IMG/VR virus record: IMGVR_UViG_3300031566_000003
DNA length: 64,000 nt
Strand: one strand, 5' to 3'
Source of the DNA: a virus
Shown here: in pieces, positions 2,194-58,481 of the stretch
Position numbering within the stretch: position 1 is the first letter of the stretch
Layout of the letters: each line of letters begins with the position of its first letter
Notes under the pieces: model-generated
Told to the model about the DNA's origin: nothing
Databases searched by the model: none
What the model saw: the letters and a program-made list of their open reading frames with translations, nothing else
Made by a program: the position numbers and the translations under genes

Positions 2194-2808
2194 CTATACA
2201 GTAGGCACTTGCACAGTAGGTACTTGCACAGTAGGTACTTGCACAGTAGGCACTGCGCTTGCTTTGTTACTAATACCTAAAACCTTATTGCATACCTTAA
2301 GCACAGTGGGCAATGCACTTGCTTTAAATGCCACAAAGCAATAGGTTTTAAATGGGTATACAACAACATCGTTTACACCGCTAAACAGTGCTTGTGCTTG
2401 TGTGCAAAATAAACCCTGCGCAGTATTGTTAAACGTTATTTTATTTTGCCCTGCAAATACACCGTGATACATTATAACGCCCTTAAAGCTTGCACTGTGC
2501 GCACTGGTTAGGCATAGGCCAAACGTTTGCCTATGCGCTTGTGTATACCCAAAATGCGCGTATTTAGGCAAGCTTGCACTGTTAAGCGCAGTAAACAAGG
2601 TTTGCAGTGTTGGCGTTAACAGGTCTAAAGCGCTTATATTAACATTGTGCGCTTTGTTTACTGCCAATTGTGCTACTTTACCATTTAAAGTAATTGGCGC
2701 GTTAAATGGGTTAACTTTGTTAGCGTATACATGCACTTGCGCAATATTATTGCCTTGCACAGTGCTTGCCCTTGCCCTTATTTTTTTTGGTACTATTGCT
2801 TTACCCAT
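2194..2808 (-). CDS. abundant-protein candidate, paralog A (204 aa), function unknown
   Basis: About 70% identical to 3411-3971 by hand alignment over a roughly 157-aa core. Consensus promoter, long conserved leader and strong terminator. The C-terminus is (PTVQV)n, encoded by a 15-bp tandem repeat. Confidence 0.85.
   Translation of the reverse strand: MGKAIVPKKIRARASTVQGNNIAQVHVYANKVNPFNAPITLNGKVAQLAVNKAHNVNISALDLLTPTLQTLFTALNSASLPKYAHFGYTQAHRQTFGLCLTSAHSASFKGVIMYHGVFAGQNKITFNNTAQGLFCTQAQALFSGVNDVVVYPFKTYCFVAFKASALPTVLKVCNKVLGISNKASAVPTVQVPTVQVPTVQVPTV
2198..2254. repeat. 15-bp tandem repeat ACAGTAGGYACTTGC, about 3.8 copies
   Basis: Units at 2198, 2213, 2228 and 2243. Encodes the PTVQV repeats at the 3' end of paralog A. 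Confidence 0.9.
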
Positions 2809-13936: not shown

Positions 13937-14431
13937 CTATAAACTACGCCTTTTAGGATCTATAAACCAATACCTTCCTAATGCTGTCAATATTCCTTCT
14001 TCAGTAAGAGCTACAGGAGAACCTAACATATTTCTTACATCGTATAGTCCATACTGATTCAGCTTCCATCCTCTTTTCTTTGCATCTGACCGACAAAAGA
14101 TATTAAACATCTTAGAACCTGTAAAGTGCAGCATCATTGGCTCAATCTCTTCTGGCCGAGAGAACATGAAATCTATCTGCATTCCGCTTTTAGTTTGCAT
14201 GTAAATGAGCGCCGGTCCACTGGAAAGAACTTCACTGGCGACCTTAGTTACGCTATTCACAAACTCATCTATGCTACTCACAACCACCACCACATCTAAA
14301 TCATGCACCTCATCACATTTTCTGCGATAACTGCCACATACCTCCATTCTGGAATATCCTTTCAATTCAGGCAGAACTTCTTTCCAGATTGCTTCTGCCT
14401 CTGCTCGGGGCCATAGTTTTTCTTTTGGCAT
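13937..14431 (-). CDS. minimal family-X DNA polymerase (Pol beta-like palm plus thumb only, 164 aa)
   Basis: GSYRRKCDEVHDLDVVVV (GS[FY]RR...hDhD), QIDFMF (third Asp) and HFTGSKMFN...AKKRGWKLNQYGL (cf. Pol beta YFTGS..FN...A...G..lNeY). AAGGAGGAG SD before 14431. Confidence 0.75.
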   Translation of the reverse strand: MPKEKLWPRAEAEAIWKEVLPELKGYSRMEVCGSYRRKCDEVHDLDVVVVVSSIDEFVNSVTKVASEVLSSGPALIYMQTKSGMQIDFMFSRPEEIEPMMLHFTGSKMFNIFCRSDAKKRGWKLNQYGLYDVRNMLGSPVALTEEGILTALGRYWFIDPKRRSL

Positions 14432-14441
14432 CTTCTCCTCC

Positions 14442-14624
14442 TTAAGCCTTGAAATAGACAAGCGGACGACTGCTTATTACGACTCCGCTTTCATAATCGT
14501 ATAGCTCTATTTCTCCAGTCTTAAAGTTCATCCTTATTTCTGTCGTATCCAGATTATCTTGTTGACCTTTTGCCCATTCTGCAAGCTCAACTATGATAGA
14601 GGTATAAATTGTTATGTCTGGCAT
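14442..14624 (-). CDS. hypothetical protein (60 aa)
   Basis: Packed ORF downstream of the promoter at 14663-14691. Confidence 0.55.
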   Translation of the reverse strand: MPDITIYTSIIVELAEWAKGQQDNLDTTEIRMNFKTGEIELYDYESGVVISSRPLVYFKA

Positions 14625-14741: not shown

Positions 14742-15227
14742 TCACGTTATTCTTTTCATTAAGATACCTAACTTCCTTACCTGTTTCATGTCATCCATAC
14801 GATCCAGTTTAAGACCTGCCTTGCGACAAGTAGCATATACATTGATTCCATAGCCCTCAATTATTGAATGATAGTTCCTCAACCTCTTTAATCTTTTAAA
14901 GTCCTCTATCCGTCTTCCTAATTTCCCATCTACTCCACGCTGCCAGTAGAGTAGATTTCTGCATTGCACAGGTGACCAATCAGGATGCTTCTTCTTCATC
15001 CTTCTAGCTTGAGCCTCTAAGTCAAATTCTACCCAGACAATATAAACTGGAGCACTGAAATTAAAGAGCTGCGTAGCATGATATCTGTGTTTCATAGCAT
15101 ATCTACAAGCTTCAACATTCGGACATCCGCGCTTATGCCTAGGATAAAAGAGTCCACACCACTTGTTTGATGTCTTGAGAGAAACTGTTTTTACAGATTC
15201 TCCGCTTATCTCTATAAAGTTTATCAT
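14742..15227 (-). CDS. hypothetical basic protein (161 aa from the ATG at 15227)
   Basis: ATGA overlap with the upstream ORF; AGGAGG SD. Confidence 0.65.
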   Translation of the reverse strand: MINFIEISGESVKTVSLKTSNKWCGLFYPRHKRGCPNVEACRYAMKHRYHATQLFNFSAPVYIVWVEFDLEAQARRMKKKHPDWSPVQCRNLLYWQRGVDGKLGRRIEDFKRLKRLRNYHSIIEGYGINVYATCRKAGLKLDRMDDMKQVRKLGILMKRIT

Positions 15228-15436
15228 CCTCCTTCTCCTTTCTGTTCTTTTAGTTGCATCATCCAGTAGAAAGGAGTACAATTCCCTTCTGTACATGGTC
15301 TGTAGAATTGAGAATAAGAGTTTTCCGACATAGTAGGATCAGGAACAGTTCTTAACAAAGTACAGTGATAGTCCTCACCACACAAATCCTCTTTCCTCGA
15401 TGGACAACTTTTCACATATAACTTTTTCCAGCTCAT
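15224..15436 (-). CDS. hypothetical Cys-rich protein (70 aa)
   Basis: GGGAGGAG SD. First gene downstream of the repeat island. Confidence 0.55.
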   Translation of the reverse strand: MSWKKLYVKSCPSRKEDLCGEDYHCTLLRTVPDPTMSENSYSQFYRPCTEGNCTPFYWMMQLKEQKGEGG

Positions 15437-15454
15437 TTTACTCCTCCCTGGCCT

Positions 15455-16740
15455 TACATATCTTTGCTCTACTTCGCTTTGCCTCCGCTCCGCTTTACTC
15501 TGAGAAACAATGCCTATGCTCTACGGAACCCGACTCTGCATCACATTGCCAAAGCTTTACGAACCCGAACTATGCCAACGCAAAGCTTTACAAGACTGGA
15601 CTATGCCGATGCCGTTCCAAGCCGTACCAAACTAAACCAAGCCGTTGCGATGTCGTACTGAGCCAAACTCTGCCCATGCTTGACTATGCTTGTCTAAACT
15701 CTGCCTCTGCAAGACTATACCTGTCCACACTTTACTCCGCCATCGCCTATACCGTTGCGATACTATACTGAGCTAAACTCTGCCATAGCTCTGCTACTCC
15801 AAACCCTGCGGGTCCAAACTCCGCCATCACCCAGCATCACCTTGTCTCACCCTTCAGTACTTCACGTCGCCTTTGCCCTGCCGAATCTTACACGACTTTG
15901 CCATAGCGCTACTGAACCTAGTTTCACAGTGCTATGCCTTTGCTGCACTTTGCTTTGTGGAACTACGCCTCCGCCATACCAAACATTTCATTACTTAGGT
16001 AGACTTTGCCACCGCCTTGCCTTTCGGTGCGCTATCTCGCAACGCCTTCGCGTTACAGTGTCTAACCAGACTTTACCCGACTATGCCGATGCTATACACC
16101 GTAAAACCGGACTCTGCCGGTGCTTAACGACTCCGCACCTAACAACGCGCCACCGAAGCTGTACTACACCACTCCATTCCATGCCTCTGCTGATCTATAC
16201 CACGCTTTTCTATACCCATGCTTCTCGCCGCCATACTCTGCCTTTGCCCTATTGAACCTTACCCGACTTTGCCAACGCATTGCATGTCTATACTGAGCGC
16301 GACGACACCATCGCATCGCACCATTTCGCGTAACATGACTTAGCCAACGCATTGCTGAAATATACTAATCCTAACGTCGCCAACGCTTTGCCCAATTCCA
16401 CCTCACTTCGCCACCGCCATTCAGTGCACCTCCTCGCAATGCCTTTGCACCTCATAACATAACTTATCGCCACCGTTGCGATTCTATGCCTTTCTTTACT
16501 CTACTGCGCCCTTGCAATTCACTGTAGGACTTTACCTCGCCTTGCCTCCGCTCTGCTCTACCGCACGACTCACCGCCAACGCAATACTAGTCTATGCAAG
16601 ACTATGCCGGTGCGTGATCAAGCGTCACCCCGCTGTGCCTTTGCCTCGCTCCGCTGTGCCTATGCAAAGAACTGCCCTGCTTGACTTTGCCTATGCTTGA
16701 CTTAGCAATTCTTAGCGCTACCCGACATTGCCACTGCGAT
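15455..16740. repeat. ORF-free GC-rich, C>G-skewed island of degenerate 15/16-nt units (RACTNTGCCNNNGC) with 31-nt and 111-nt higher-order copies
   Basis: No convincing ORF on either strand. Hand counts for the rows starting at 15661, 16081 and 16381 give C=19/21/27 and G=9/12/7 per 60 nt. TGCC occurs roughly three dozen times. The 111-nt duplication is 15641 versus 15752. Confidence 0.85.
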
Positions 16741-17428
16741 TTTTCGGGATACCTGACATTACCTTTGCCTTTACTTTCCTCTTCTTCACGACCGTTGGGG
16801 TCTGCTCCTTAGGACTAAGAATTCTAAAAGCACCAAATCCGCCAGAACCTCGCCATTCCCCAACACCTACCAATTCTCCATATTCCATGCACATATTAAT
16901 CACTTCCATCGTGATCCGGCCACCAGCCAGGAGCGCAACCGTAAAGGAGAATCTTGTTCCAGCATTAACATAGTCCGATCTCTTAAGAGCTATCCTCGGG
17001 CCATCCTTGGTCATAAAACGGATAGATCTTTCAAGGGTTCCATCCGGCACCATCTTACCGAAATGAATTCTCCTTGGTTCAATGAACACCAATCTATCCG
17101 TCCATTTTTTATAAGCTTTAAACGCAGTTGCAGTGAGTTTCTTTATCTCTATCAAGGTTCCAATCGCTTCTTTTATGAAGCCTTTGATCTGGTAATTGTA
17201 AAGAAACAAGCCCTCTTCATCTCTGTGAAAGGTGCTCCAGCCTTTTTCTTCCAAGTCTACCATTGTTGCAAGTTCCTCTTCTTCATTTGCCTCTTTCTCT
17301 TCGGCTGGTATTTTCAGTTCTTTCATCTTAGCCAAGATGAATTTAGCATACACATCTTTTCCCATCGGGACCGTTCCCAAAGCCATCTCTAAAAGTTCAA
17401 CATCATACCTCTTCCTTTCTAGTTCCAT
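16718..17428 (-). CDS. RAMP-like (Csm3/Cmr4/Cas7-like) protein candidate with a basic tail (236 aa from the ATG at 17428)
   Basis: The CDS itself is secure (AAGGAGGAG SD). The family call is motif-level only: YQIKGFIKEA (cf. SS[IL]KG..R), DYVNAGTRFSFTVALL (cf. E.V..G..F.F.I) and a C-terminal Gly-rich loop GVGEWRGSGGFGAF (cf. GhG-x5-GhG). It needs a profile or structure search. Confidence 0.4.
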   Translation of the reverse strand: MELERKRYDVELLEMALGTVPMGKDVYAKFILAKMKELKIPAEEKEANEEEELATMVDLEEKGWSTFHRDEEGLFLYNYQIKGFIKEAIGTLIEIKKLTATAFKAYKKWTDRLVFIEPRRIHFGKMVPDGTLERSIRFMTKDGPRIALKRSDYVNAGTRFSFTVALLAGGRITMEVINMCMEYGELVGVGEWRGSGGFGAFRILSPKEQTPTVVKKRKVKAKVMSGIPKNRSGNVG

Positions 17429-17678
17429 TTTCTCTCCTCCTTGAGTTTTGGGCAACAATCGTTGCCAGTTTACTTTCCTTCTCCTCTTTTCTTTCATTTA
17501 TAAGCTTCATAATCCCCAAAACAACTTCTTCCTGTTGGTCCATAGAGAGAGCTTTAAATTCTCTAATCTTTTGCATAACCCTATACAGCCGATCTGTTAA
17601 GGATTGTTTTTCAATTTTTCCTGGAATTCCCGCCAGAAACCTTTTAAATTCAGCCCTGTCATTTTCCTTTTCATTCAT
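17403..17678 (-). CDS. hypothetical protein, paralog of 17692-17877
   Basis: Shared GIPG, R.Y, EF..LSMD.Q.E.VL and LI.E blocks. Confidence 0.65.
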   Translation of the reverse strand: MNEKENDRAEFKRFLAGIPGKIEKQSLTDRLYRVMQKIREFKALSMDQQEEVVLGIMKLINERKEEKESKLATIVAQNSRRRENGTRKEEV

Positions 17679-17691
17679 TTTTTCCTTCCTC

Positions 17692-17877
17692 CTACTCCTT
17701 TATAAGCTCAACTACTTTAAGAACAATTTCTCCCTGGCGATCCATTGAAAGAGAATTAAACTCAGGAATTCCTCGCAAGCATTTATACACTCTTTCCTTG
17801 ATAGGATACATTTTCAATCCTCCTGGAATTCCCATTACAATTTTCTGCCAATCAATTCTTTCTAAATCTCTACCCAT
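17692..17877 (-). CDS. hypothetical protein, paralog of 17403-17678
   Basis: See 17403-17678. Confidence 0.6.
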   Translation of the reverse strand: MGRDLERIDWQKIVMGIPGGLKMYPIKERVYKCLRGIPEFNSLSMDRQGEIVLKVVELIKE

Positions 17878-19411: not shown

Positions 19412-19837
19412 TCATTTTTTTCTAAGAGTTGCACGAACCTCCATTAGAATTTTGCCTAAGTTATTTTCTCCTCTTCCTTTAAAGATTCCCCAAAAGGTAT
19501 CTTTATAATTATTTCCTTCTATTAACTCTTTCTCTCCCGTTGAAAGAAGAAGCTGTCCCAATTTCGTATTGCGTTGAAATTTCTGTGACACGAGAGATGT
19601 CATAACATCAATCCTCCGATTTAGCCAGCCTGGTCTTTGAGTGACTCTCTTACCAGCTCTCTTAGCTCTCCCAGGAGTAGGACAAGCTAAAATCTCCATT
19701 CTCTCTTCTAGGTCTAGAGTCTTAGCTGCCTGAAACGCATGCTCCAGTGTAGGATATTTTATTCCGTCAAGAATAATAGGGGTAGGATAGAAATTTGAAA
19801 GAAAGAAAAATCTTCCTCGAAAGTATTTAACAGTCAT
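19412..19837 (-). CDS. NADAR (YbiA/DUF1768) family protein
   Basis: FFFLSNFYP..I.LDGIKYPTLEHAFQAAK and WG...G.N.LG..LM..R blocks typical of the family. Confidence 0.75.
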   Translation of the reverse strand: MTVKYFRGRFFFLSNFYPTPIILDGIKYPTLEHAFQAAKTLDLEERMEILACPTPGRAKRAGKRVTQRPGWLNRRIDVMTSLVSQKFQRNTKLGQLLLSTGEKELIEGNNYKDTFWGIFKGRGENNLGKILMEVRATLRKK

Positions 19838-36796: not shown

Positions 36797-38716
36797 TTAT
36801 TCTATATAGCTCTTTCCATCTTTTTTTACAATATTGATCGTTTCTCCGTAGCCAGAGACAACATCATGATGAGTAATAACTAACACCTTTGTCCCTTCAT
36901 CTGCCTTTTGACGCAATAATTCCACCATCCTATCTCTGCCTGGTCCATCCGTACCGACAAAAGGTTCGTCAAACCAAAGCAAAGCAATAGGACTTTCAGC
37001 AGAACTAAAGAGAGCCATTTGCGTACTGAATTCTATTTTAGAAATTTCTCCTCCCGAATATGTTCTTACATCTCGCGGCTTTTCTCCATTAACACTTACT
37101 TCAACGGTTATTTCATCTACAACTTTCTTTGACTTCATTTCTTTTTTAGGTTTGAAAAAAACCGAGATGTCATTATCCGACAAAACATCAAGAAAATCAG
37201 AAGAATGGAGATTAAGATTAGTAAGAAAATCATCAAAGAGCTCTCGCATCGTTTTATCGTATGCTACTTCCGATAGTTCATGCTTTGCCTCTTCTATACT
37301 GATTCCCTTTAAAAGCATTTGGACAGTATTTATTCTGACTAATAATTCATTCTTTTTAATCATTATAGTTTCAAGCGTAGATTTTCCGCTAGGAAATTCA
37401 ATTTGCTTTTGAATTCTTTTTATTTCTTCACTGTTTTTGCCTAAATCTCTTTTAAAAGATGCCACCATTGCCTCCCATTTTTCAGCAATACGCAATCCTT
37501 TTAAGAGACTTTCTCTATGCTGAATTTTTGGTCCTAAGCGTTTATATCTTTCTGTAATTAGCTCTAATTCTTTTCTACTCTTCACAATGGTCTTTTCCAG
37601 AGTTTCAATTTCAATTTCAAGATTCTCAACTTCTTTTCTACACTCCTTAATCTTTACTTTATCATCATTTATAACCTTTTCAACCCTCTCAGGGGTGAGT
37701 TTAACGCCACATTTATCACATACAGTGGACTTATGGCTTCTGAGGTCACGAACCTCTAAAATCATCTGCGAAATTTTGACAGAAACCTTTCCTTTTTCTT
37801 GAGTTTTCAGACTAATTTGGGCTTTTTCCCTAGCCACCATGTCTCGAACGCGAGCAAGTTTATTTATTATTTCATTCGCCTCTTCTATGTCATGCTTCAG
37901 AGAACTGATTCTAAAACGTAGTTTTTCTATTCCTACTGTTTGTAAAATAGCATACTTTAATTTGTCAGCCACCTCTATCTCTGAATCTTTTAACTCTTTC
38001 ATTGCTACACTGGCAGCTTCCTTAAATCTTTCAACCTCTTTACATAATCTATTTTCCGTGTCCTCTAGAACTCTAAGCTCTCCTTCGAATTTATTAAGAG
38101 TAACAACTACATTTTCTTTTTCATCTCTAACTTTCCTAAAAGTCTCATGAGAAAGTTTTTTACACTTCTGAAGATCATGTAAGTCACGGATATCAATAAT
38201 GATTTCAGCTTTCCTGGTATCAGCGACGTTTAAGAATCTATTAAAATCTCTCTGACCGAAGAAATTTCGGTTACAAAATGTTCCCCAATTTATATTTAAT
38301 TCCCTATTAATAACAGTATATGTATCCGCTTTTGTTTTCCTACTCAGATCATAGACTTCTTCACCCATCTTTTTAAGAAAGAAAACTTTACTCCCGAACA
38401 CATGATGATTGCGATATTTTTTGATATACCAATAACATTTTAAGGCAGGATCCTTGAAAGCAATATACTCATACGTCCACTTTGCAAATTTTCCAATAAA
38501 GCTTTCTGGACTGTGACGACGAATTGTTTTGTCAAAAAGGAGATCTGTAAGCAAATCTCCAAGGATCGATTTTCCCGCCCCATTACTTTCAGAACCTGCG
38601 GTATCTAGATTCGTTCCAGTAATGAAGACTAAGTTATCTTTGAAACTTCCAAAATTTAGATCTAAAGTTTCATAGAAAACAAAGTTTGTTGCCTTCATCC
38701 GAATTGGAATAAGCAT
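36797..38716 (-). CDS. Rad50/SbcC-like ATPase
   Basis: Walker A (SNGAGKS), long coiled coil with a CDKCG zinc hook, signature YSGGE and Walker B (LLWFDEP). Confidence 0.8.
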   Translation of the reverse strand: MLIPIRMKATNFVFYETLDLNFGSFKDNLVFITGTNLDTAGSESNGAGKSILGDLLTDLLFDKTIRRHSPESFIGKFAKWTYEYIAFKDPALKCYWYIKKYRNHHVFGSKVFFLKKMGEEVYDLSRKTKADTYTVINRELNINWGTFCNRNFFGQRDFNRFLNVADTRKAEIIIDIRDLHDLQKCKKLSHETFRKVRDEKENVVVTLNKFEGELRVLEDTENRLCKEVERFKEAASVAMKELKDSEIEVADKLKYAILQTVGIEKLRFRISSLKHDIEEANEIINKLARVRDMVAREKAQISLKTQEKGKVSVKISQMILEVRDLRSHKSTVCDKCGVKLTPERVEKVINDDKVKIKECRKEVENLEIEIETLEKTIVKSRKELELITERYKRLGPKIQHRESLLKGLRIAEKWEAMVASFKRDLGKNSEEIKRIQKQIEFPSGKSTLETIMIKKNELLVRINTVQMLLKGISIEEAKHELSEVAYDKTMRELFDDFLTNLNLHSSDFLDVLSDNDISVFFKPKKEMKSKKVVDEITVEVSVNGEKPRDVRTYSGGEISKIEFSTQMALFSSAESPIALLWFDEPFVGTDGPGRDRMVELLRQKADEGTKVLVITHHDVVSGYGETINIVKKDGKSYIE

Positions 38717-41577: not shown

Positions 41578-41725
41578 ATCTTCTCTTAGCTTCTATAATC
41601 TTATCAATACAACCTGGATGAAAAACAACTTTCTTATCAGGAGCATTCATAACGGGAACACCTTTTATTGTAATCGGAACAATTTGTTCACACAAAGGGC
41701 ATTGTCTGTTTTCAGCTATGCTCAT
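41546..41725 (-). CDS. hypothetical Zn-binding protein (59 aa, below the ORF-track cutoff)
   Basis: Hand-translated MSIAENRQCPLCEQ...HPGC...; ATGA overlap with the Mre11 stop. Confidence 0.5.
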   Translation of the reverse strand: MSIAENRQCPLCEQIVPITIKGVPVMNAPDKKVVFHPGCIDKIIEAKRRYDEEIAKSSG

Positions 41726-42837
41726 CTAATTTCTCCTTCCTTCATTCTTTTATATAAAGACATTACATGTTCTTCAAACTTTGGTATTCTAGCTGACTGT
41801 TCGGCTAACCCTTTTACTACAGTATATAAAACCTTCTCCTTACTGGATTTCGCAAGCATTGTTCTTTCTTTACCAGCAGAAGACAACTTATGGATCTTTT
41901 TTGTACGTGGCATGATTAAGTAATAAGGTTCGCATTCAGAAACTCTTTTAATAAAATCAATATTTTCTTCTTCTGTTTTTTTATCTAGATCCAATACGAG
42001 TTTGACTATATTATTCCTTATTATTTCACGGTCTACAGAATAATCATCTATAACTACAAATCGTGGACTATATTTGTTGGATAATCTAGAAACTTTTAAA
42101 GCAGGAAGATCAAAAAAAGCAATCCCCGGATGAGTATTTCGTTCATCCATTCTTGTCTGCTGAATTGATCCAGAATAAAAAGCATTAGGAATAATACGTT
42201 GGAAATAATGATGATGACCAAAAATCATTAAATCATAACCATCCGCTATACCTTCAAGATTTTCTGGCTTGATCCCCCTGATACTTTTAGTTGATCCATG
42301 CAATGTTCCCTTAATTCCTGCATGGCCGACTAAAATGTTATAGTAAATACGATCAACAGGAGCCCCATTGTTACGCATTAAAAGAAGAAACTTTTCATCA
42401 GAACAATGACTTATCGCCACCACTCTAATTGGAGTATCCGTTTCCTTGAAAAGATATATTCCCAAATCTCCTTGCTTGAAATAAATATTTCTACATTGCT
42501 TCCTATAGATAGTTAAAAAATCTAGGATTGAAGTTTTATGGTCTATATCATGATTCCCAGAAACGATTACGGTCGGGATTCTATTGACTCGACAGAGTTC
42601 TAGAAAATGAATAAGCAAGAATAATGTATCACTATCTAGAAGAGTAGTATGGCATAAATCTCCAGGAACAACGATTAAATCCACTGATTTTTTGACTATT
42701 TTTTGGAATGAAGACCCTAAAAATTCCATAAGTTGATATTTACGATAATCTGATCCAACGGAAGTATAAGGGAGGGAATTTGTTAAATGAGGGTCTCCTA
42801 TGGCAGCAATTCTAATGAAACACTTTTTCTTCTCCAT
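41722..42837 (-). CDS. Mre11/SbcD-like nuclease
   Basis: Calcineurin-like motifs GDPH, GDLCH, GNHD, GH and GHHH. Confidence 0.8.
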   Translation of the reverse strand: MEKKKCFIRIAAIGDPHLTNSLPYTSVGSDYRKYQLMEFLGSSFQKIVKKSVDLIVVPGDLCHTTLLDSDTLFLLIHFLELCRVNRIPTVIVSGNHDIDHKTSILDFLTIYRKQCRNIYFKQGDLGIYLFKETDTPIRVVAISHCSDEKFLLLMRNNGAPVDRIYYNILVGHAGIKGTLHGSTKSIRGIKPENLEGIADGYDLMIFGHHHYFQRIIPNAFYSGSIQQTRMDERNTHPGIAFFDLPALKVSRLSNKYSPRFVVIDDYSVDREIIRNNIVKLVLDLDKKTEEENIDFIKRVSECEPYYLIMPRTKKIHKLSSAGKERTMLAKSSKEKVLYTVVKGLAEQSARIPKFEEHVMSLYKRMKEGEIR

Positions 42838-43084
42838 CGATATCCTTCTTAATCTCATTAGCTATTTTCTTAAGAGCTTCAAAAAAATCTGAATAGAATC
42901 CTAATGTTATTTCAACAGCTTTTTCTCTAGATAGATCCCCAACTTCACCCCAATCTCTCGCTTTTCCTTCTTCTTCTATAGCTTTAGGATTTAAAATAAT
43001 TGCCATTAATGTGATCGTCAAAACTCCTTCAAACAATTCTTTTAATTGCCCATATAATTCTGGAATTCCTTCTTCAGCAGCCAT
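42812..43084 (-). CDS. hypothetical protein (90 aa)
   Basis: Packed ORF. Confidence 0.55.
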   Translation of the reverse strand: MAAEEGIPELYGQLKELFEGVLTITLMAIILNPKAIEEEGKARDWGEVGDLSREKAVEITLGFYSDFFEALKKIANEIKKDIDGEEKVFH

Positions 43085-43087
43085 CCT

Positions 43088-44149
43088 TTAAAGTTCCTCG
43101 AGCGCAACAGGTTTCGCCAAATATCCTAAAATTATTGTCTTAGCTTCTTTGTTATCTTTTAAGAACTGAGAAAATTCATTTATGCCCTGGAATTTCAATG
43201 TGGGATCAGCTTTCATTTTAAACCATCCTCCTCTTCTCACAATATATTTTCTTTCAAGCAAAAAGTCAAGGACTGCAAAATTCCGGCTAAACCCCCTCCC
43301 ATTAATAATTTTAAACTTAACCGACCGATGAGGTGGAAAAAGTTTATTCTTTGTTGTCTTTATCAGTCCAAAATGTCCAGCAATTCTTTTCTTAGAATCT
43401 TTAATAGCATTCGTTCTATATAAACTGAGACAAATAGAGTCATGAAAATTAAAAGCATCTCCTCCTATGTTCGTTTCAGGATTCCCCCAGAATACACCCA
43501 ATTTAGATTTCGTCTGATGACTAATCAAAAAAATAGCTTTGGACTTAGCGATAGGACCAGTCAATTTACGACAAGCTAATGCTGCAAGTCTCGCATGTTC
43601 TCCTAGCGATTTTCCTTTAGTGGTGAAATCTCCGTCTGATTCAGCCTGTGTTGTGAACCCACTAAAAGAATCCATTATTATCAAATAGGGTGCAGCAATA
43701 CCAGTTTTCTGCCGAGCCAGCAAACACATGTCTACAGCTATCTCAATGGCTCTAAAAGCATCCTCTAGAGTATCGGGCTGGCTAATTAAAAAGGATTTAA
43801 CTGGAGCACAAATTTTCCTTGCATAGTCAAGATCTAAAGCATGTTCTGATTCAACAATATGAACTGCTCCCCCTCTCTTATAAGCTTCAAGGGCAACCTT
43901 TAAAAGAAAAGAAGATTTACCGACATTAGGTTTAGACTTAATACTTACTATCCTTCCTACGGGAAGACCCCATCTGCCATCCTTAGACCTAGCAAGAATT
44001 CTGTCTAGATTTGGCAATCCAGTAGACAAAACATCTTCCACAACAAGAGGAGTAGAAGGATCAGCGAGACTCATTATTCCCACTGGTTCTTTCCTCTTTT
44101 CAATGGCAGCAAGAATTGTCTCCGAGAGAAGTGTGCTTTGTAGCTTCAT
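43088..44149 (-). CDS. recA: RecA-family recombinase
   Basis: GLPVGRIVSIKSKPNVGKSSF (Walker A context), VESEHALDLDYARKI (cf. IDAEHALDP.YA..LG) and IIMDSFSG (Walker B). GGAGGA SD. Confidence 0.8.
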   Translation of the reverse strand: MKLQSTLLSETILAAIEKRKEPVGIMSLADPSTPLVVEDVLSTGLPNLDRILARSKDGRWGLPVGRIVSIKSKPNVGKSSFLLKVALEAYKRGGAVHIVESEHALDLDYARKICAPVKSFLISQPDTLEDAFRAIEIAVDMCLLARQKTGIAAPYLIIMDSFSGFTTQAESDGDFTTKGKSLGEHARLAALACRKLTGPIAKSKAIFLISHQTKSKLGVFWGNPETNIGGDAFNFHDSICLSLYRTNAIKDSKKRIAGHFGLIKTTKNKLFPPHRSVKFKIINGRGFSRNFAVLDFLLERKYIVRRGGWFKMKADPTLKFQGINEFSQFLKDNKEAKTIILGYLAKPVALEEL

Positions 44150-54429: not shown

Positions 54430-55170
54430 TTATTTATCCTCCAAAATTCTTCGCAACTCATTCAATGACAAAAAATCTTTATTATTCTTAGCAACTTCTT
54501 CCTCCATATCCTTAGCGTTTAAACGAACTCCTGTCGCATTTGTAATAGGAAAATTATGGAAAAGCATCTGCACTTTCATTCCTAATCCATCGGCCCTGGC
54601 CCCTAAAACTAAGAACTTATCTTTCCAATTTCGCTCTGCAATGAATTCCGATATCCCACGTGGAATATAACCAACTAGCAGAAATTCACGCCAAATATCA
54701 ACAGCAACATAGACTGCAATAGCATTAGAATCAAAAGGATTTTTAGGATCAGCTTTAATCCTAATAGCATTCTCCATTCCATAGGCTAAAGATAAAACTT
54801 TTTCAAATGGCTGATTCCTTATCATATCAAATAAAGTTTCTTCTGGACTCCAGAAGAAGATTCTACCAAAATTTTCAAAAAACTCATGAATTAATACATC
54901 CCTTCTTATTAATACTGGCTCTCCTGGCCGAGAAGCCCTAGGATTATTCTCTGTAAAACTTGTTCCAACAATTTTGACTTCAAGATAATAGAAAGGAAAA
55001 TTAAAATGAGAAGGACTATAGAGAATTTTTATTAGATCTTCTGTAGGAATTAACTTATTATACATAGTCTTATGACTCAGTTTTCTCTTACCAGTCACTC
55101 TACCTTCCCTCAGTGTCCCCAATAATACCTTAGTTCTTGTTAACTCTTCGGCAAAATCTAATTTTTTCAC
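54430..55170 (-). CDS. HIRAN-domain protein (246 aa)
   Basis: KIVGTSF and IKADPKNPFDSNAIAVYV...VGYIPRG. 4-nt overlap with dnaE. Confidence 0.6.
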   Translation of the reverse strand: MKKLDFAEELTRTKVLLGTLREGRVTGKRKLSHKTMYNKLIPTEDLIKILYSPSHFNFPFYYLEVKIVGTSFTENNPRASRPGEPVLIRRDVLIHEFFENFGRIFFWSPEETLFDMIRNQPFEKVLSLAYGMENAIRIKADPKNPFDSNAIAVYVAVDIWREFLLVGYIPRGISEFIAERNWKDKFLVLGARADGLGMKVQMLFHNFPITNATGVRLNAKDMEEEVAKNNKDFLSLNELRRILEDK

Positions 55171-58100
55171 AACTCCTTAACCCAAGACCCACTTGCAAAG
55201 CCAAGTTTCAGCTTAGACCTATCAGTATTCAAAATTATAGAATCCTCTTTGTTCCAAAAATGCTTAACTCCCGAGACCACCAAGACAGATCCTTGCTTAA
55301 AATAATCCTTAGCCAACTCATAACTTTCAGGAAATAGAGTAATATTAAATACAGACTTTCCATCTTTCAAGATGACAAAGGCCATATTATCTCCCTTCTT
55401 AGTTTGGATAACATGAAGACGAGAAATTCTTCCAAAAACCATTACTCTCTCTCCGGGAGAAGTATCTCTATATTCTTTTTGACCCATTAATCCTTTAAAC
55501 ATTTTAAGCTGACTACTATACAAGCTAGATAGGGATTGTAATTCAAACCCGAAGATATCTTCCATAGCCACTGCCATTGTTTCTTTAGAAGTAAAAGCAA
55601 CTGGTAGATCAGGACTTTTATCCTTACGCAATCTAATATATTCCATCATAACAGCACGTTTATTCCCGAATTCTTTAAATGCTCCGGCTAGAATTAAATT
55701 AGTAACAACTCTTTTATTACATAATCTCTTATCTACCCTGTTTAAAAAATCTTCTATAGAAATAAATGGTGCATTTTTTACTATACTAACAACAGCCTTA
55801 TCTCCTACGCTTTTTAATGCCGTCAAGGGCCACCAAATTTTGCCCATAGCTGCTTCAAATTGCATTTTGGGTGCATTTATGTTAGGCATAGCAAACTGAA
55901 TGCTGTAAATTCGTCCTGCTACCTCCTTAACATGTCCGTATTTAGCCTGAGGCTGATAACGTAAATGACAAGTGAAAAATTCTTCAGGAAAATGAACCTT
56001 CAAGTATTGACAAATGAATCCAAGAAGAGCATAACTACTCGCATGTCCCCTAGGAAAAAGATAACTTCCTGCTTGACTAAATTTTTTCCATATTTTCTTT
56101 GCAACCTCTTTTATATCAGGTTCTTCACTCCACTTCTTCATAGCCCCAGAAATAAAGACTTGACGATAAGCTTTAAAGAGATCAAGATTTTTTCCCTTAA
56201 TAATTTTCCTAAGCTTATCTGCTTCTTTAATTGGCAGTCCGGCAAATTCATTCGCTGTACGCAATATGTGTTCACTAAAGACAATCACACCAAGAGAGTC
56301 ATTTAGAATATTCTTAAGTGAATGATGATCATATTCAATTAAAGAAGGATTAGCCTTCCGTGCTGCAAAAGTCTTATCTGCTCCAGCAGCTAAAGCCCCA
56401 GGTCTGGCTAAAGCATTTATCACAATAAGATCATTGAACTCAGTTATCTTAGTCATATTAATAATTTGACTGGCAGAGCCTCCACTGAATTGAAATACCC
56501 CTGTTAATTCTTTCCGGTTAAACATCTGCAAAGTTTTTTTATCTTCAAGGTCAAGCTTGTAGAGATCTACTGACGTTCCGCGAGTCTTCTTTACAAGATC
56601 CATTACTTCTGAAACAACAGACAGAGTCTTGACTCCTAATATATCTAAAGCCATTACTCCTATTTCATTCAAATCTTCTCTTCCTGTATGAGAATTTTCC
56701 CACATAGTTGAAATTATACGCTCTTTACTATGAGGATCTACTTGAGTTCTAATGGGAAGGATTTTATCTACAGAATCTGGAGTAATTATTACTCCAGCAG
56801 GATGCAATGAAACATTCTTAATGTTTCCGATAAGAGGTTCTATATAACGCTGCATTATCTTTTTATTATTCAAATACCATTTATCAAAAATATTATAAAA
56901 TTGTCTTGCTGTATCAACAGTTAAGTCTCCGTCCATAACGGATGTGACCTTATTAATAACTTGGAAAGTAAAATCCTTTTGCATTTCTGCCAGTCTATCT
57001 GCATCTTTCTCAGTTTTAGCATTTTCTATTCTCTCATCAAGACGTTCCTTTAAAACTCTAGTCACATCTTTAATGGCAGATTTTAATTGCATTCGGCCAT
57101 AAGTTCCTACTGAAATAACTCTATCTGAACCATATCTTTTTCTAAGATATTCAACAGCTTTTGACCTAAACTCGCTCCTTACATCAATATCTATATCTAT
57201 ATCATTAAGACTTCTGTACTTACTCACAAACCGTTCAAACATAATACTATGTCTTATTGGATCAATAAGTCCAAATCCAAAAACAAAAGCAATTAAACTC
57301 CCATTAGCACTTCCCCGAATCATACTGAATGCTCCATTGCTTCGCACAAAATGCAACAGATCATCAACTATCAAAAAATAATCAATTCCTCCTAGCTTAT
57401 TTAATACTGAAAATTCGTTTGAGAGTCTAGCTTTATATATAGGATCTCTTACTTTTTCTTTCAGCATTTGCTTTGCTCTATGAATAATAATCTTTTTAAA
57501 AAATTCGGCTTTATCTGATATTGGAAATTGTTCGTAGAGGAAATGCGTAGTATGATCAAAAGAAGGAAAGTATAATTTACCAGTTTCAACTAGATAATTT
57601 GCAGAGTCAACAATTCTAAACAAATTATCTATGGCTTGATGAAAAATCTTCTTAGGAACACTCTTATGTTCTATAAAATCTTTTTCTGCATCTGCCAATG
57701 TTTTAAGAAAGTTTGATTCAGAATCCATTTTAAACTTATTCTTTGTTGCCAAGTGCAACAAAATGGACTGCAACTTATGATCTCCTTTCTTTATATAATG
57801 CACATCATTTGTGAGCACAAAGGGAATCTCAAGCATTAGTCCAAGTTCAACAAGCATCTTATTCAGCTCATCCTGAATTGGCATGTCTAAAAATTGCAGT
57901 TCTAAAAAGAAATTTCCTCCATAAATCTTTTTAAAAAGTTTCGCAACTTGAATTGCACGTTCTTTTTTACCATTTAATAATAAGGCACTTACTACTCCGG
58001 ACTGACAAGCACTGAGAACCACAAGCCCTTCAGAATGTTTTTTTAGGTGAGCAAAGTCTGTCCTATTTCTATAATAAAAACCTTCTCTCCAAGAATCATT

Positions 58101-58481
58101 GTTAATCGCAATTAAATTCTTATACCCCTGAGCATTCCTGGCAATCAAAACAAGATGATAAGCCCTCCTATTCTCCTGAATGAATGCCTTATAGATTTCT
58201 TGTTTTTTCTTGTCTTTCGTCTTATCTAGAGCTTGTCGTACTTTCTGTATTTTTTCAACATCAGGAGAGACATAAGCTTCTAACCCCAAGAGAACTTTGG
58301 TTTTATACTTTGAACTCTCGACACTAGCTTCAGCATGAGATCCCATAGATCCATGGTCGGTAAAAGCTATGGCAGGAATTTCTAATTCTTCACAGGCTTT
58401 AAGATAAGATACTGGACCAAAAACTCCATCCAACAAGGAATAATAGGTATGAACATGAAGATGTGGAAAATTGGTAGACAT
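55167..58481 (-). CDS. dnaE: DNA polymerase III alpha subunit (DnaE-type replicase)
   Basis: 1104 aa. N-terminal PHP motif HLHVHTYYSLLDG...TDHGSM. Overall Pol IIIa length and layout. Confidence 0.85.
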   Translation of the reverse strand: MSTNFPHLHVHTYYSLLDGVFGPVSYLKACEELEIPAIAFTDHGSMGSHAEASVESSKYKTKVLLGLEAYVSPDVEKIQKVRQALDKTKDKKKQEIYKAFIQENRRAYHLVLIARNAQGYKNLIAINNDSWREGFYYRNRTDFAHLKKHSEGLVVLSACQSGVVSALLLNGKKERAIQVAKLFKKIYGGNFFLELQFLDMPIQDELNKMLVELGLMLEIPFVLTNDVHYIKKGDHKLQSILLHLATKNKFKMDSESNFLKTLADAEKDFIEHKSVPKKIFHQAIDNLFRIVDSANYLVETGKLYFPSFDHTTHFLYEQFPISDKAEFFKKIIIHRAKQMLKEKVRDPIYKARLSNEFSVLNKLGGIDYFLIVDDLLHFVRSNGAFSMIRGSANGSLIAFVFGFGLIDPIRHSIMFERFVSKYRSLNDIDIDIDVRSEFRSKAVEYLRKRYGSDRVISVGTYGRMQLKSAIKDVTRVLKERLDERIENAKTEKDADRLAEMQKDFTFQVINKVTSVMDGDLTVDTARQFYNIFDKWYLNNKKIMQRYIEPLIGNIKNVSLHPAGVIITPDSVDKILPIRTQVDPHSKERIISTMWENSHTGREDLNEIGVMALDILGVKTLSVVSEVMDLVKKTRGTSVDLYKLDLEDKKTLQMFNRKELTGVFQFSGGSASQIINMTKITEFNDLIVINALARPGALAAGADKTFAARKANPSLIEYDHHSLKNILNDSLGVIVFSEHILRTANEFAGLPIKEADKLRKIIKGKNLDLFKAYRQVFISGAMKKWSEEPDIKEVAKKIWKKFSQAGSYLFPRGHASSYALLGFICQYLKVHFPEEFFTCHLRYQPQAKYGHVKEVAGRIYSIQFAMPNINAPKMQFEAAMGKIWWPLTALKSVGDKAVVSIVKNAPFISIEDFLNRVDKRLCNKRVVTNLILAGAFKEFGNKRAVMMEYIRLRKDKSPDLPVAFTSKETMAVAMEDIFGFELQSLSSLYSSQLKMFKGLMGQKEYRDTSPGERVMVFGRISRLHVIQTKKGDNMAFVILKDGKSVFNITLFPESYELAKDYFKQGSVLVVSGVKHFWNKEDSIILNTDRSKLKLGFASGSWVKEL

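What the first reader, a model, noticed from the sequence alone, without database searches (positions are those of the whole stretch)
15437..16745. 1.3-kb ORF-free, GC-rich, C>G-skewed island built from degenerate 15/31/111-nt repeats
- The flanking genes are packed with overlaps, yet this stretch between the stop at 16718 and the start at 15436 has no credible ORF on either strand.
- Hand counts for the three 60-nt rows starting at 15661, 16081 and 16381 give C=19/21/27 versus G=9/12/7 on the plus strand. That is about 50% G+C with a 2-4-fold C excess, against roughly 25-40% G+C in spot-checked coding rows.
- The sequence is a degenerate minisatellite with unit RACTNTGCCNNNGC. At 15667-15728 the units read aaactctgcccatgct, tgactatgcttgtct, aaactctgcctctgca, agactatacctgtcc, which is two 31-nt higher-order copies.
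- There is also a 111-nt duplication, 15641 versus 15752, sharing CCGTTGCGATnnnnTACTGAGCYAAACTCTGCC.
- TGCC occurs roughly three dozen times against an expectation of about 7 from composition.
- The low G content argues against a compactly folded plus-strand RNA.
- The neighbours are transcribed on the minus strand, so the non-template strand and transcript would be G-rich. That geometry favours R-loops, as in class-switch regions and R-loop-primed origins.
- Alternatives are a helically phased protein-binding array (centromere, origin or packaging site; 31 nt is about 3 helical turns) or a repeat-bearing transcript acted on by the adjacent RAMP-like protein.
Basis: partly seen in the sequence, partly recalled or inferred. 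Interest (0 to 1): 0.88.

Follow-up and report, generated by a model that had tools for sequence, protein, structure and literature searches.

The report
Phage VIPR guide-RNA repeat array
The GC-rich "ORF-free island" is a 1.35-kb array of about 260 five-base G-Y-N-N-N repeats lying directly after a small Cas7-like (Vipr) gene, which makes it a phage VIPR RNA-guided DNA-silencing locus, a kind of system first described in 2026 preprints, and not an origin, centromere or R-loop zone.

Summary
Window 15437-16789 (minus strand) is a strict five-base lattice, (G-Y-N-N-N)n. It has 219 pentamers and 43 hexamers. Each hexamer shifts the phase by +1, which produces the 31/36/41-nt "higher-order" repeats (lag 31, z=15.6; lag 3 negative, so not coding).

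The gene immediately upstream on the same strand (16718-17428) is a roughly 200-aa minimal RAMP/Cas7-like protein. Its predicted fold matches Cas7/Csm3. Its family profile aligns over its full length with the Vipr protein of SUSP1-type Felixounavirus phages (hhalign E 2.5e-6).

In 26 IMG/VR loci and several metagenome contigs from unrelated phage backbones, including Mu-like elements, homologs of this protein carry the same lattice beside them. Array content turns over unit by unit between phages that are about 90% identical in the flanks.

This matches VIPR systems (bioRxiv 10.64898/2026.04.26.720920 and .720927). In those, one Vipr protomer binds each pentamer, hides the conserved bases and presents the variable bases to pair with target DNA.

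This locus is a new member, of the "YNNNG", tail-less, apparently "staggered" variant. It has the longest array I saw. No targets were found. The R-loop, origin and centromere readings are not supported.

The parts
16718..17428 (-). vipr gene. It encodes a minimal RAMP/Cas7-like protein of 236 aa, starting at M24 of the 259-aa ORF 16718-17497. The homologous core ends near residue 205. The last roughly 23 codons run into the repeat array.
   Evidence: - 9 close homologs, and 2391 clusters at 50% identity in the large library.
- The AlphaFold model (pLDDT 72.7) matches Cas7 of type VII and Csm3 of type III: Foldseek prob 1.0, TM 0.45-0.58.
- A PDB sequence search with the 9-sequence profile hits 'SUSP1 Vipr protein' 36pp (E 0.007) and Cas7.
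- hhalign of the 105-sequence profile against Felixounavirus Alf5 Vipr gives prob 88.8%, E 2.5e-6, over 174 columns.
- G-loop residues W and R are conserved.
15437..16789 (-). vrRNA array: 262 repeats (219 pentamers G-Y-N-N-N and 43 hexamers GC(A/G)NNG), organised in about 40 units of 5n+1 nt (31 nt x19, 36 x11, 41 x4).
   Evidence: - Autocorrelation.
- Positional profile around TGCC, with C every 5 nt and one 6-nt step.
- Dynamic-programming parse: position 1 G 91% (favoured by the parser), position 2 Y 86%, positions 3-5 entropy 1.83-1.92 bits.
- 41 of 42 spacings of GYNNNGGY are 1 mod 5. The motif occurs 43 times against 13.2+/-3.3 in shuffles.
- The local lattice detector finds one block in the window, 15437-16789 on the minus strand.
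15582..15612 (-). Example of one 31-nt unit in RNA sense: [GCAUCG] GCAUA GUCCA GUCUU GUAAA GCUUU. A hexamer ending in G precedes a full GGC motif, followed by five pentamers.
   Evidence: Parse.
16718..16789 (-). Overlap zone. The first array units are read as the lysine-rich, low-confidence C-terminal tail of the predicted Vipr ORF. The stop TAG lies inside a GUAGC repeat.
   Evidence: Homologs end at about residue 201-205 of P0001. pLDDT is below 50 for residues 215-236. The lattice starts at 16789.
15224..15436 (-). Next gene downstream (70 aa, Cys-rich, no family match). Its GGAGGA ribosome-binding site and ATG directly abut the last repeat, so the array is sandwiched inside a same-strand gene string. 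It is context only and is not shown to belong to the system.
   Evidence: Sequence. No Pfam or PHROG hit. Not conserved next to vipr elsewhere.

Best explanation
This is a VIPR (Viral Interference Programmable Repeat) locus of an uncultured phage of about 137 kb.

Proposed mechanism:
1. The minus strand is transcribed through vipr into the array, giving an RNA of the form (G-Y-N-N-N)n.
2. Vipr, a single-domain RAMP related to Cas7, polymerises on this RNA with one protomer per 5-nt repeat.
3. Its G-loop, thumb and helix-1 bury the invariant G and pyrimidine. The variable bases of successive repeats are held out as a gapped guide.
4. The guide pairs with DNA of a competing phage or mobile element, and the bound filament blocks transcription.

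Steps 2-4 are shown experimentally for SUSP1 and P. fulva VIPR in the two 2026 preprints. They are inferred here by homology.

Specific to this clade:
- Only G2 and Y3 of the canonical GGY are conserved. This is the preprint's 'YNNNG' repeat.
- There is no 3' tail or ribozyme between guides.
- Once per unit a hexamer inserts one extra G, which creates a full GGC motif and shifts the lattice by +1.

I infer that this phase break is the punctuation dividing the transcript into about 40 short guides of 4-9 repeats. The mode is 6, which is one turn of the six-subunit binary filament. These are probably the 'staggered, 1-nt-overlapping' arrays the preprint mentions but did not test.
For: Protein:
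- RAMP fold. The top 50 Foldseek hits are all Cas7/Csm3/Cmr-type subunits.
- Weak but specific sequence hits to SUSP1 Vipr and Cas7 G-loops.
- Full-length profile match to the Felixounavirus Vipr.
- Vipr residues that contact G2 and Y3 are kept: W178 is W/F in 104/105, R179 is R in 102/105, R138 is R/K in 84/105.
- The two residues that contact G1 are replaced family-wide: D177 is Q in 101/105 and H17 is T/S in 102/105. This fits the loss of the first G in the repeat (residue roles from 10.64898/2026.04.26.720927).

RNA:
- 5-nt lattice with conserved G-Y and three high-entropy positions.
- Not coding.
- No Rfam family and no tRNA.

Association:
- The same same-strand lattice, 180-1150 nt long, sits next to vipr homologs in L002, L007, L008, L010 and in nearly all of 26 IMG/VR loci. 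These lie in unrelated contexts, including RecT/DnaD siphophage modules and between Mu-like A and B genes. They also show 5n+1 unit lengths.

Hypervariability:
- L025 and L026 are about 90% identical in the flanks but share only about 8 of about 34 units.
- L007 and L008 genes are 72-75% identical, yet their arrays cannot be aligned.

Literature:
- Definition of VIPR, alternative YNNNG repeats, staggered arrays, one protomer per repeat, six subunits per turn.
Against: - Similarity to the experimentally studied Vipr is remote. hhalign probability is 88.8%. The direct PDB hit (E 0.007) is lost when the profile is broadened, and Cas7 then ranks first.
- The canonical GGY motif, the 9-16-repeat guide length and the conserved 3' tail are all absent.
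- No accessory (vap) gene could be recognised. None of the window's neighbouring genes recurs next to vipr elsewhere.
- No target was found under any of 12 pairing rules in the window or in 275 kb of related loci. None was found by blastn of the concatenated variable triplets against 50,697 phage genomes, or by four exact-pattern scans of IMG/VR and JGI metagenomes.
- There are no expression data. No promoter or terminator consensus brackets the array.
Confidence: 0.88

Rival explanations
1. The Vipr-like protein coats the repeat RNA as described, but the complex does something other than gapped DNA silencing. It might target RNA, act as a decoy or sponge, or work as a long structural ribonucleoprotein filament. 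Alternatively it might use a different code, for example three paired bases per repeat.
For: - Three rather than two variable positions per repeat, and loss of the G1 pocket residues.
- No tail and no vap.
- Units as short as 4-6 repeats would give only 8-12 paired bases under the published NNx rule.
- No targets were found.
- The preprint validated the rule only for type II and applied it to types III and V.
Against: - Unit-level turnover of the variable content between near-identical phages looks like guide exchange, not a scaffold.
- G2, Y3 and thumb contacts are conserved.
- The target searches had very low power: exact matches only, or tiny databases.
Confidence: 0.12
2. A DNA-level array of protein-binding sites, such as iterons of a replication origin, a partition centromere or a packaging site, with sites phased at half-turn and three-turn intervals.
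For: 5.17-bp and 31-bp periods are close to half a turn and three turns of B-DNA. The locus lies in the replication and early-gene region.
Against: - The motif has one polarity throughout, and always the polarity of the adjacent vipr gene.
- Unit lengths vary as 5n+1 (21-46 nt), so helical phasing is not kept.
- Only 2 of 5 positions are conserved. That is too little for a DNA-binding site but exactly the VIPR RNA pattern.
- The module also occurs inside Mu-like transposable phages.
- Array content is hypervariable between close relatives.
- No initiator or partition gene is linked.
Confidence: 0.03
3. An R-loop-prone, G-rich-transcript region, either switch-region-like or an R-loop-primed origin.
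For: The minus-strand transcript would be 34.5% G and 16% C.
Against: - GC skew equals that of the surrounding genes.
- Gs are single and spaced every 5 nt, not clustered.
- The strict lattice and its link to a RAMP protein are not explained.
Confidence: 0.02
4. A decayed or recoded protein-coding gene, or an expanded and then degenerated microsatellite without function.
For: Long gap in an otherwise tightly packed genome. Plus-strand ORFs of 123 and 166 aa.
Against: - No 3-nt periodicity (lag 3, z=-4).
- All three stop codons occur in every minus-strand frame.
- Decay would erode all five repeat positions equally. Here G and Y stay at 86-91% while three positions are near maximal entropy.
- The same architecture is conserved across distant phages.
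Confidence: 0.01

Closest known systems
VIPR systems (Vipr protein plus vrRNA), type II of Escherichia phage SUSP1 / Felixounavirus and the P. fulva prophage (bioRxiv 10.64898/2026.04.26.720920 and .720927)
   Same: - Phage-encoded single small RAMP of about 200 aa with a G-loop containing W-R.
- Adjacent non-coding tandem 5-nt repeats with conserved G and pyrimidine and hypervariable other positions.
- No cas genes and no CRISPR array.
- Guide content differs between close relatives.
   Different: - The repeat is (N)GYNN, not GGYNN. For comparison, Alf5 has 88% G at the position before G-Y and the window has 26%.
- There is no promoter-plus-tail unit per guide. In Alf5 each vrRNA of about 100 nt has its own upstream box and 3' hairpin.
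- Here about 40 units are butted together over 1.35 kb.
- There is no vap gene between vipr and the array.
- Protein identity is about 24% over the hhalign alignment.
VIPR variants mentioned but not characterised in the preprint: 'YNNNG' repeats and 'staggered arrays with 1-nt-overlapping vrRNAs' (Methods and fig. S18 legend)
   Same: The G-Y-N-N-N lattice is the same thing as YNNNG repeats. The 5n+1 unit length, with a G shared between the end of one unit and the GGC start of the next, fits '1-nt overlapping positions'.
   Different: I could not see the figure or the locus list, so the equivalence is inferred. The preprint reports no experiment for staggered arrays. Which of the seven types this locus belongs to is undetermined.
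Class 1 CRISPR backbone (Cas7/Csm3/Cmr4 filament on crRNA)
   Same: Best structural matches. One RAMP per fixed RNA step, with a thumb that flips bases periodically.
   Different: - 5-nt rather than 6-nt step.
- Specificity is carried inside the repeats, not in a spacer.
- No repeat-spacer array, and no Cas5, Cas6, Cas10 or Cas1-2.
- Encoded by a virus.
Plasmid and phage iteron or centromere arrays (for example F sopC 12 x 43 bp, R1 parC, P1 incA)
   Same: Long array of direct repeats in a non-coding stretch near replication genes.
   Different: Those repeats are conserved 10-40-bp protein-binding sites, often with dyad symmetry, next to par or rep genes. Here only 2 of 5 bases are conserved, the polarity follows a RAMP gene, and the content is hypervariable.

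Membership tests
VIPR system | A Vipr protein: a small stand-alone RAMP (RRM core, glycine-rich loop, thumb) homologous to published Vipr proteins | tested here: met
   - Foldseek top hits are Cas7/Csm3, prob 1.0.
- PDB profile hit to SUSP1 Vipr 36pp, E 0.007.
- hhalign against Alf5 Vipr: E 2.5e-6, full length.
- G-loop G-x-W-R...G-R-F is conserved.
- The homology is remote and was not placed in the published tree.
VIPR system | Tandem pentanucleotide repeats next to vipr, with a conserved G/Y core alternating with hypervariable positions | tested here: met
   262 repeats. G 91%, Y 86%, and positions 3-5 at 1.83-1.92 bits. They lie on the same strand, immediately 3' of vipr.
VIPR system | Canonical GGY/NN (YNNGG) consensus | tested here: not met
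   The position preceding G-Y is G in only 26% of pentamers, against 88% in Alf5. The pattern matches the alternative 'YNNNG' consensus that the preprint accepts for some types.
VIPR system | vrRNA of 9-16 repeats capped by a conserved structured 3' tail (type II architecture) | tested here: not met
   Units have 4-9 repeats and follow one another without tails. No recurrent hairpin, no hammerhead or other Rfam hit. The fold z-score is only -2.4. The preprint lists tail-less 'staggered' arrays as another architecture.
VIPR system | Linked vap accessory gene | tested here: inconclusive
   No neighbour of the window's vipr recurs in 36 related loci, and the neighbours have no family hits. The two small paralogs upstream (17403-17877) are untested candidates. 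The preprint notes that some vipr genes stand alone.
VIPR system | Viral or proviral location without cas genes or a CRISPR array | tested here: met
   The window carries phage replication and recombination genes: DnaE-like polymerase, UvsX, SbcCD-like proteins and thymidylate synthase. Rfam, which includes CRISPR repeat families, gives no hit. Relatives are IMG/VR viral contigs.
VIPR system | Variable positions differ between related systems (programmable content) | tested here: met
   L025 versus L026: flanks are about 90% identical, but only about 8 of about 34 units are shared. L007 versus L008: arrays cannot be aligned while the genes are 72-75% identical.
VIPR system | Guides match natural DNA targets through the gapped (NNx) rule | tested here: inconclusive
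   No enrichment under 12 rules in the window or in 275 kb of loci. Only chance blastn hits. Zero exact hits in four collection scans. The power of these tests was very low.
VIPR system | vrRNA is expressed, processed and co-purifies with Vipr, and the complex represses transcription | not testable with these tools
   Needs RNA-seq, pull-down and reporter assays.
CRISPR-Cas (class 1) | Repeat-spacer array plus cas1/cas2 and multi-subunit effector genes | tested here: not met
   There is no repeat-spacer structure: the lattice is continuous. There is one RAMP gene only, and there are no cas families among the neighbours.
Iteron origin / partition centromere | Conserved binding-site repeats of 10 bp or more, with a linked initiator or ParA/ParB-type gene | tested here: not met
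   Only G and Y of each 5 nt are conserved, plus an 8-nt unit start. There is no rep or par gene adjacent. The module also occurs in Mu-like transposable phages.

The most novel reading that the evidence does not exclude
This clade of VIPR uses a code and an array grammar different from the characterised type II.
- Vipr has lost the G1 pocket (D177 to Q/E, H17 to T/S). That leaves three programmable bases per repeat.
- A single inserted G every 4-9 repeats (units of 5n+1 nt) acts as phase-break punctuation.
- One 1.35-kb transcript would then be read as about 40 independent mini-guides of roughly one filament turn each, without tails, ribozymes or a Cas6-like processing step.

If so, the target rule could be NNN-based rather than NNx, and this phage would carry the largest known natural guide repertoire of this kind.
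Probability: 0.3. Interest if true: 0.7.

Novelty: new member of a known kind. Interest (0 to 1): 0.5.

Why it matters
VIPR was reported only in April-June 2026, as a pre-CRISPR, virus-encoded way of reading DNA with a repeat-encoded gapped guide. Only type II has been dissected.

This locus is a clean, very large natural example of the untested YNNNG "staggered" architecture: 262 repeats in about 40 units, in a phage of about 137 kb. Comparative data collected here add three points:
- The vipr-plus-array pair is the only conserved module.
- It hops between unrelated phage backbones, including Mu-like elements.
- Its units turn over like CRISPR spacers.

The residue-level argument (G1 contacts lost, G2 and Y3 contacts kept) gives a testable reason for the altered repeat. 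It also suggests that the pairing rule may differ, which matters both for predicting targets and for using these small proteins as tools.

For genome annotation, the practical lesson is that GC-rich "ORF-free" islands in phages with a 5-nt G-Y lattice next to a 200-aa RAMP are guide arrays. They are not origins or junk.

Tried and rejected
1. Stop-codon recoding or a hidden long ORF. The vipr stop is TAG, but all three stops occur in every minus-strand frame and lag-3 autocorrelation is negative. Rejected.
2. Known RNA families and tRNAs. No Rfam hit at gathering scores in the whole window, only noise at E<=1 in the region, and ARAGORN finds nothing.
3. blastn of the island against 50,697 phage records: no match.
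4. An exact-peptide scan of IMG/VR with the single neighbouring protein found nothing. The alignment-based scan later worked. The 105-sequence alignment was too diverse for that tool.
5. My own early analogies were TRAP-like rings, potexvirus coat proteins with 5 nt per subunit, DnaA-trio-like ssDNA filaments, and RHH or Fur-type short-period DNA arrays. They were superseded once the neighbouring protein proved to be a RAMP with a published RNA partner.
6. A phase-locked 100-nt lattice scanner failed because of the +1 shifts. I replaced it with runs of phased G-Y and a local dynamic-programming detector. The detector over-calls in GC-rich loci (L022, L030, L035), and I ignored those rows.
7. 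Target prediction gave no signal above chance:
   - self-scan of the window under 12 rules, with a control that was compositionally imperfect;
   - 239 guides from 21 arrays against 275 kb of window plus loci;
   - concatenated variable triplets by blastn against phages;
   - exact scans of JGI metagenomes and IMG/VR with NNN/0-skip and NNN/1-skip patterns from two clean units.
   The canonical NNx rule could not be scanned usefully. It gives 12-16 specified bases per unit, so hundreds of chance hits are expected.
8. In-frame stop depletion in the variable triplets: 10 observed against about 17 expected from position-specific composition in sense, and 13 against about 13 in antisense. Too weak to interpret.
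9. Variation of the array between samples: all six contigs carrying this phage are 100% identical over the locus, so there is no information.
10. The preprint's supplementary tables are not held, so I could not assign one of the seven types.
Full report
**1. What is in the sequence**

Window 15437-16745 is 51.2% G+C against 37.2% elsewhere, with C=454 and G=216 on the plus strand. The C>G skew itself is not special. Values of -0.33 to -0.39 here sit within the -0.24 to -0.42 of the neighbouring minus-strand genes.

No minus-strand frame is open. Recoding any single stop codon does not open one, although the upstream gene ends in TAG. The plus-strand ORFs of 123 and 166 aa lie in a stop-poor strand without codon periodicity.

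Autocorrelation against 200 dinucleotide shuffles shows a dominant 31-nt period (45% identity, z=15.6). It rides on a 5-nt period, with lags 5, 10, 15/16, 21, 26, 36 and 41 all at z>5. Lag 3 is depleted (z=-4). Profiles anchored on the 33 TGCC sites show a C every 5 nt for at least 45 nt on both sides, with exactly one 6-nt step per unit.

Read on the minus strand, the region parses into 219 pentamers G-Y-N-N-N and 43 hexamers GC(A/G)NNG, 262 repeats in all, spanning 15437-16789.
- Position 1 is G in 91% of repeats. The parser favours this.
- Position 2 is a pyrimidine in 86%.
- Positions 3-5 have 1.83-1.92 bits of entropy.

Each hexamer is followed by GCANA GU, so a unit starts with G-C-R-N-N-G-G-C-A-N-A-G-U. 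41 of 42 spacings between unit starts are 1 mod 5 (31 nt x19, 36 x11, 41 x4). GYNNNGGY occurs 43 times against 13.2+/-3.3 in shuffles, and GGCA (TGCC on the plus strand) 33 times against 15.2+/-3.4.

The lattice occurs nowhere else in the 64 kb. 26 of the 30 minus-strand runs of four phased G-Y are here. There is no Rfam family and no tRNA. The RNA folds only slightly better than shuffles (z=-2.4).

**2. The neighbour is the key**

The gene directly upstream on the same strand (16718-17428, 236 aa as called in public assemblies) has no Pfam or PHROG hit. It does have homologs.

In contigs carrying those homologs, the gene is again followed by a non-coding stretch with the same lattice:
- 'GCAAAGCATAGCATAGCAAAG...' in a RecT/YopX/DnaD-type siphophage module (L002);
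- 'GTGCGGTGAGGTTTTGT...' between a Mu-like transposase and a MuB-like ATPase (L007, L008);
- a more degenerate lattice-like stretch, judged by eye, in a human-gut phage (L010).

An alignment-based scan of IMG/VR gave 26 more loci. Nearly all have a same-strand lattice of 180-1150 nt next to the gene. It is usually 3' of the gene, but 5' in L014, L029 and L036. These arrays also have unit lengths of 21, 26 or 31 nt, that is 5n+1.

None of the window's other neighbouring genes recurs in these loci. The protein-plus-array pair is therefore the conserved module.

**3. What the protein is**

- A profile of the nine closest homologs hits 'SUSP1 Vipr protein' (PDB 36pp, E 0.007) and a type VII Cas7 in the PDB sequence file. 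Both hits are over the C-terminal G-loop.
- A broader profile of 105 sequences hits Cas7 and Csm4 G-loops instead.
- The AlphaFold model (pLDDT 72.7) finds only Cas7/Csm3/Cmr RAMPs by Foldseek (prob 1.0, TM 0.45-0.58). That structure library predates the VIPR depositions.
- I recovered the SUSP1-type Vipr gene from Felixounavirus Alf5. The 105-sequence profile aligns with it over its full length: hhalign prob 88.8%, E 2.5e-6, 174 columns.
- The family is large, with 2391 clusters at 50% identity at E<=1e-3.

**4. The literature**

Two bioRxiv preprints from 2026 (10.64898/2026.04.26.720920 and .720927) describe Viral Interference Programmable Repeat systems.
- A phage-encoded minimal RAMP (Vipr) binds vrRNAs made of 9-16 GGY/NN pentamers plus a 3' tail, with one protomer per repeat.
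- The binary complex is a right-handed filament with six subunits per turn.
- GGY is buried, and the NN dinucleotides pair with DNA while skipping every third target base.
- The bound complex silences transcription of competing phages.

The Methods state that some clades have 'NNNGG, YNNNG and NNNNG' repeats. The text and the fig. S18 legend mention 'staggered arrays' whose vrRNAs derive from '1-nt overlapping positions'. That architecture is not among those the preprint says it confirmed by small-RNA sequencing (hammerhead-interspersed arrays and single-vrRNA systems).

G-Y-N-N-N is the same thing as YNNNG. Units of 5n+1 nt, in which the last G of one unit is the first G of the next unit's GGC, fit that description. 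I could not see the figure, so the equivalence is inferred.

**5. Why the repeat differs**

Alf5 Vipr carries the residues named in the structure paper at the same numbers. In the window's family:
- Residues contacting G2 and Y3 are kept: W178 is W/F in 104/105, R179 is R in 102/105, and the thumb residue R138 is R/K in 84/105.
- The two residues that read G1 are replaced throughout: D177 is Q in 101/105 (E in the window) and H17 is T/S in 102/105.

This matches the RNA. The base preceding G-Y is G in 88% of Alf5 repeats but in only 26% here. This argument is an inference from a remote alignment.

**6. Behaviour of the arrays**

L025 and L026 are about 90% identical in vipr and the flanks. Only about 8 of about 34 units have a counterpart at 85% identity or better; the rest are unrelated. 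L007 and L008 have genes 72-75% identical and arrays that do not align. This unit-by-unit turnover is what exchangeable guides would show.

The window's phage itself is 100% identical over the locus in six contigs from different samples. Its array of 1353 nt is the longest among the loci I examined. The next longest by the same detector are about 0.9-1.1 kb.

**7. Mechanism proposed**

- Shown elsewhere and inferred here: transcription of the minus strand through vipr into the array. The array begins inside the last 70 nt of the ORF and ends at the ribosome-binding site of the next gene, and no terminator consensus lies between them. Vipr then polymerises one protomer per repeat, the variable bases are presented, and gapped pairing with foreign DNA leads to silencing.
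- My inference: the once-per-unit extra G both creates the only full GGC site and breaks the 5-nt register. It would therefore delimit about 40 short filaments of 4-9 protomers on the transcript. The mode is 6, which is one turn of the binary filament.
- Open question: whether two or three bases per repeat pair with the target.

**8. Targets**

I found none.
- Scans of the window, and of 275 kb of related loci, under 12 position and skip rules gave only chance-level matches.
- blastn of the concatenated variable triplets against isolate phages gave only hits at E of about 10.
- Four exact-pattern scans of JGI metagenomes and IMG/VR under three-base rules returned nothing.

These tests have low power, so they neither support nor refute targeting.

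**9. Verdict**

The R-loop, origin and centromere readings are not supported.

The locus is a new member of a kind described in 2026 (VIPR). It belongs to the little-studied YNNNG, tail-less, apparently staggered architecture. Its type is undetermined, its accessory gene is unrecognised and its targets are unknown.

Noticed in passing
window 17403-17678 and 17692-17877 (minus strand): Two small ORFs (91 and 61 aa) just upstream of vipr are paralogs: 36% identity over 59 aa, E 9e-16. The first overlaps the vipr start by 26 nt. They have no family hits. They are possible accessory proteins, but they are not conserved next to vipr in other loci.
   Followed up: partly
L007 2693-3673 and L008 917-1883: In two Mu-like elements the vipr gene and a lattice of about 370 nt sit between a Mu-type transposase (Mu-transpos_C) and a MuB-like AAA ATPase, followed by GemA. 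A VIPR module is therefore embedded in the transposition operon of transposable phages.
   Followed up: partly
L015 and L016 (IMGVR_UViG_3300016457_000282, 57194-65778 and 84653-93237 reversed): The same 150-kb viral contig carries two copies of vipr in inverted orientation about 27 kb apart. The copies gave identical match coordinates and identical lattice scores. Whether this is a real inverted duplication or an assembly artefact is unknown.
   Followed up: no
proteins P0023 (458 aa) and P0065 (432 aa): Two representatives of the family are double length and match the profile in two stretches. They look like tandem-fused Vipr proteins.
   Followed up: no
L014 3714-3883, L029 3392-3971, L036 597-891: In these loci the lattice lies upstream rather than downstream of vipr. 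In GC-rich arrays (L020/L021, L029) the detector scores both strands, because GC-starting pentamers are partly self-complementary.
   Followed up: no
L025 5407-5460: The array ends in an inverted repeat, GGCGGGAGTGGGC...GCTCACTCCCGC. It looks like a terminator hairpin and is conserved in L026. No equivalent is seen at the end of the window's array.
   Followed up: no
window 2200-2262 (plus strand; inside ORF 2194-2808 on the minus strand): A nearly perfect 15-nt tandem repeat, ACAGTAGGTACTTGC, about four copies, at the 3' end of a 204-aa minus-strand ORF. It is not a G-Y lattice and is probably a coding pentapeptide repeat.
   Followed up: partly
window 55167-58481, 43088-44149, 36797-38716, 41722-42858, 58488-59714: The host phage has a DnaE-like polymerase only about 28% identical to the nearest isolate phages, plus UvsX-like, SbcC/SbcD-like and thymidylate synthase genes. 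The longest public contig is about 137 kb. It is a deeply divergent, uncultured large phage.
   Followed up: partly
window 13937-14461 and 19412-19837 (minus strand): A Pol-beta-type nucleotidyltransferase (palm plus thumb domains) lies within 3 kb of the VIPR locus on one side, and a NADAR-domain protein lies within 3 kb on the other.
   Followed up: no
window 14742-15296 versus 15224-15436 (minus strand): The mechanical 184-aa ORF overlaps the 70-aa ORF by 73 nt. Public gene calls use a 161-aa product starting later (L037 5702-6187), so the longer start is probably wrong.
   Followed up: no
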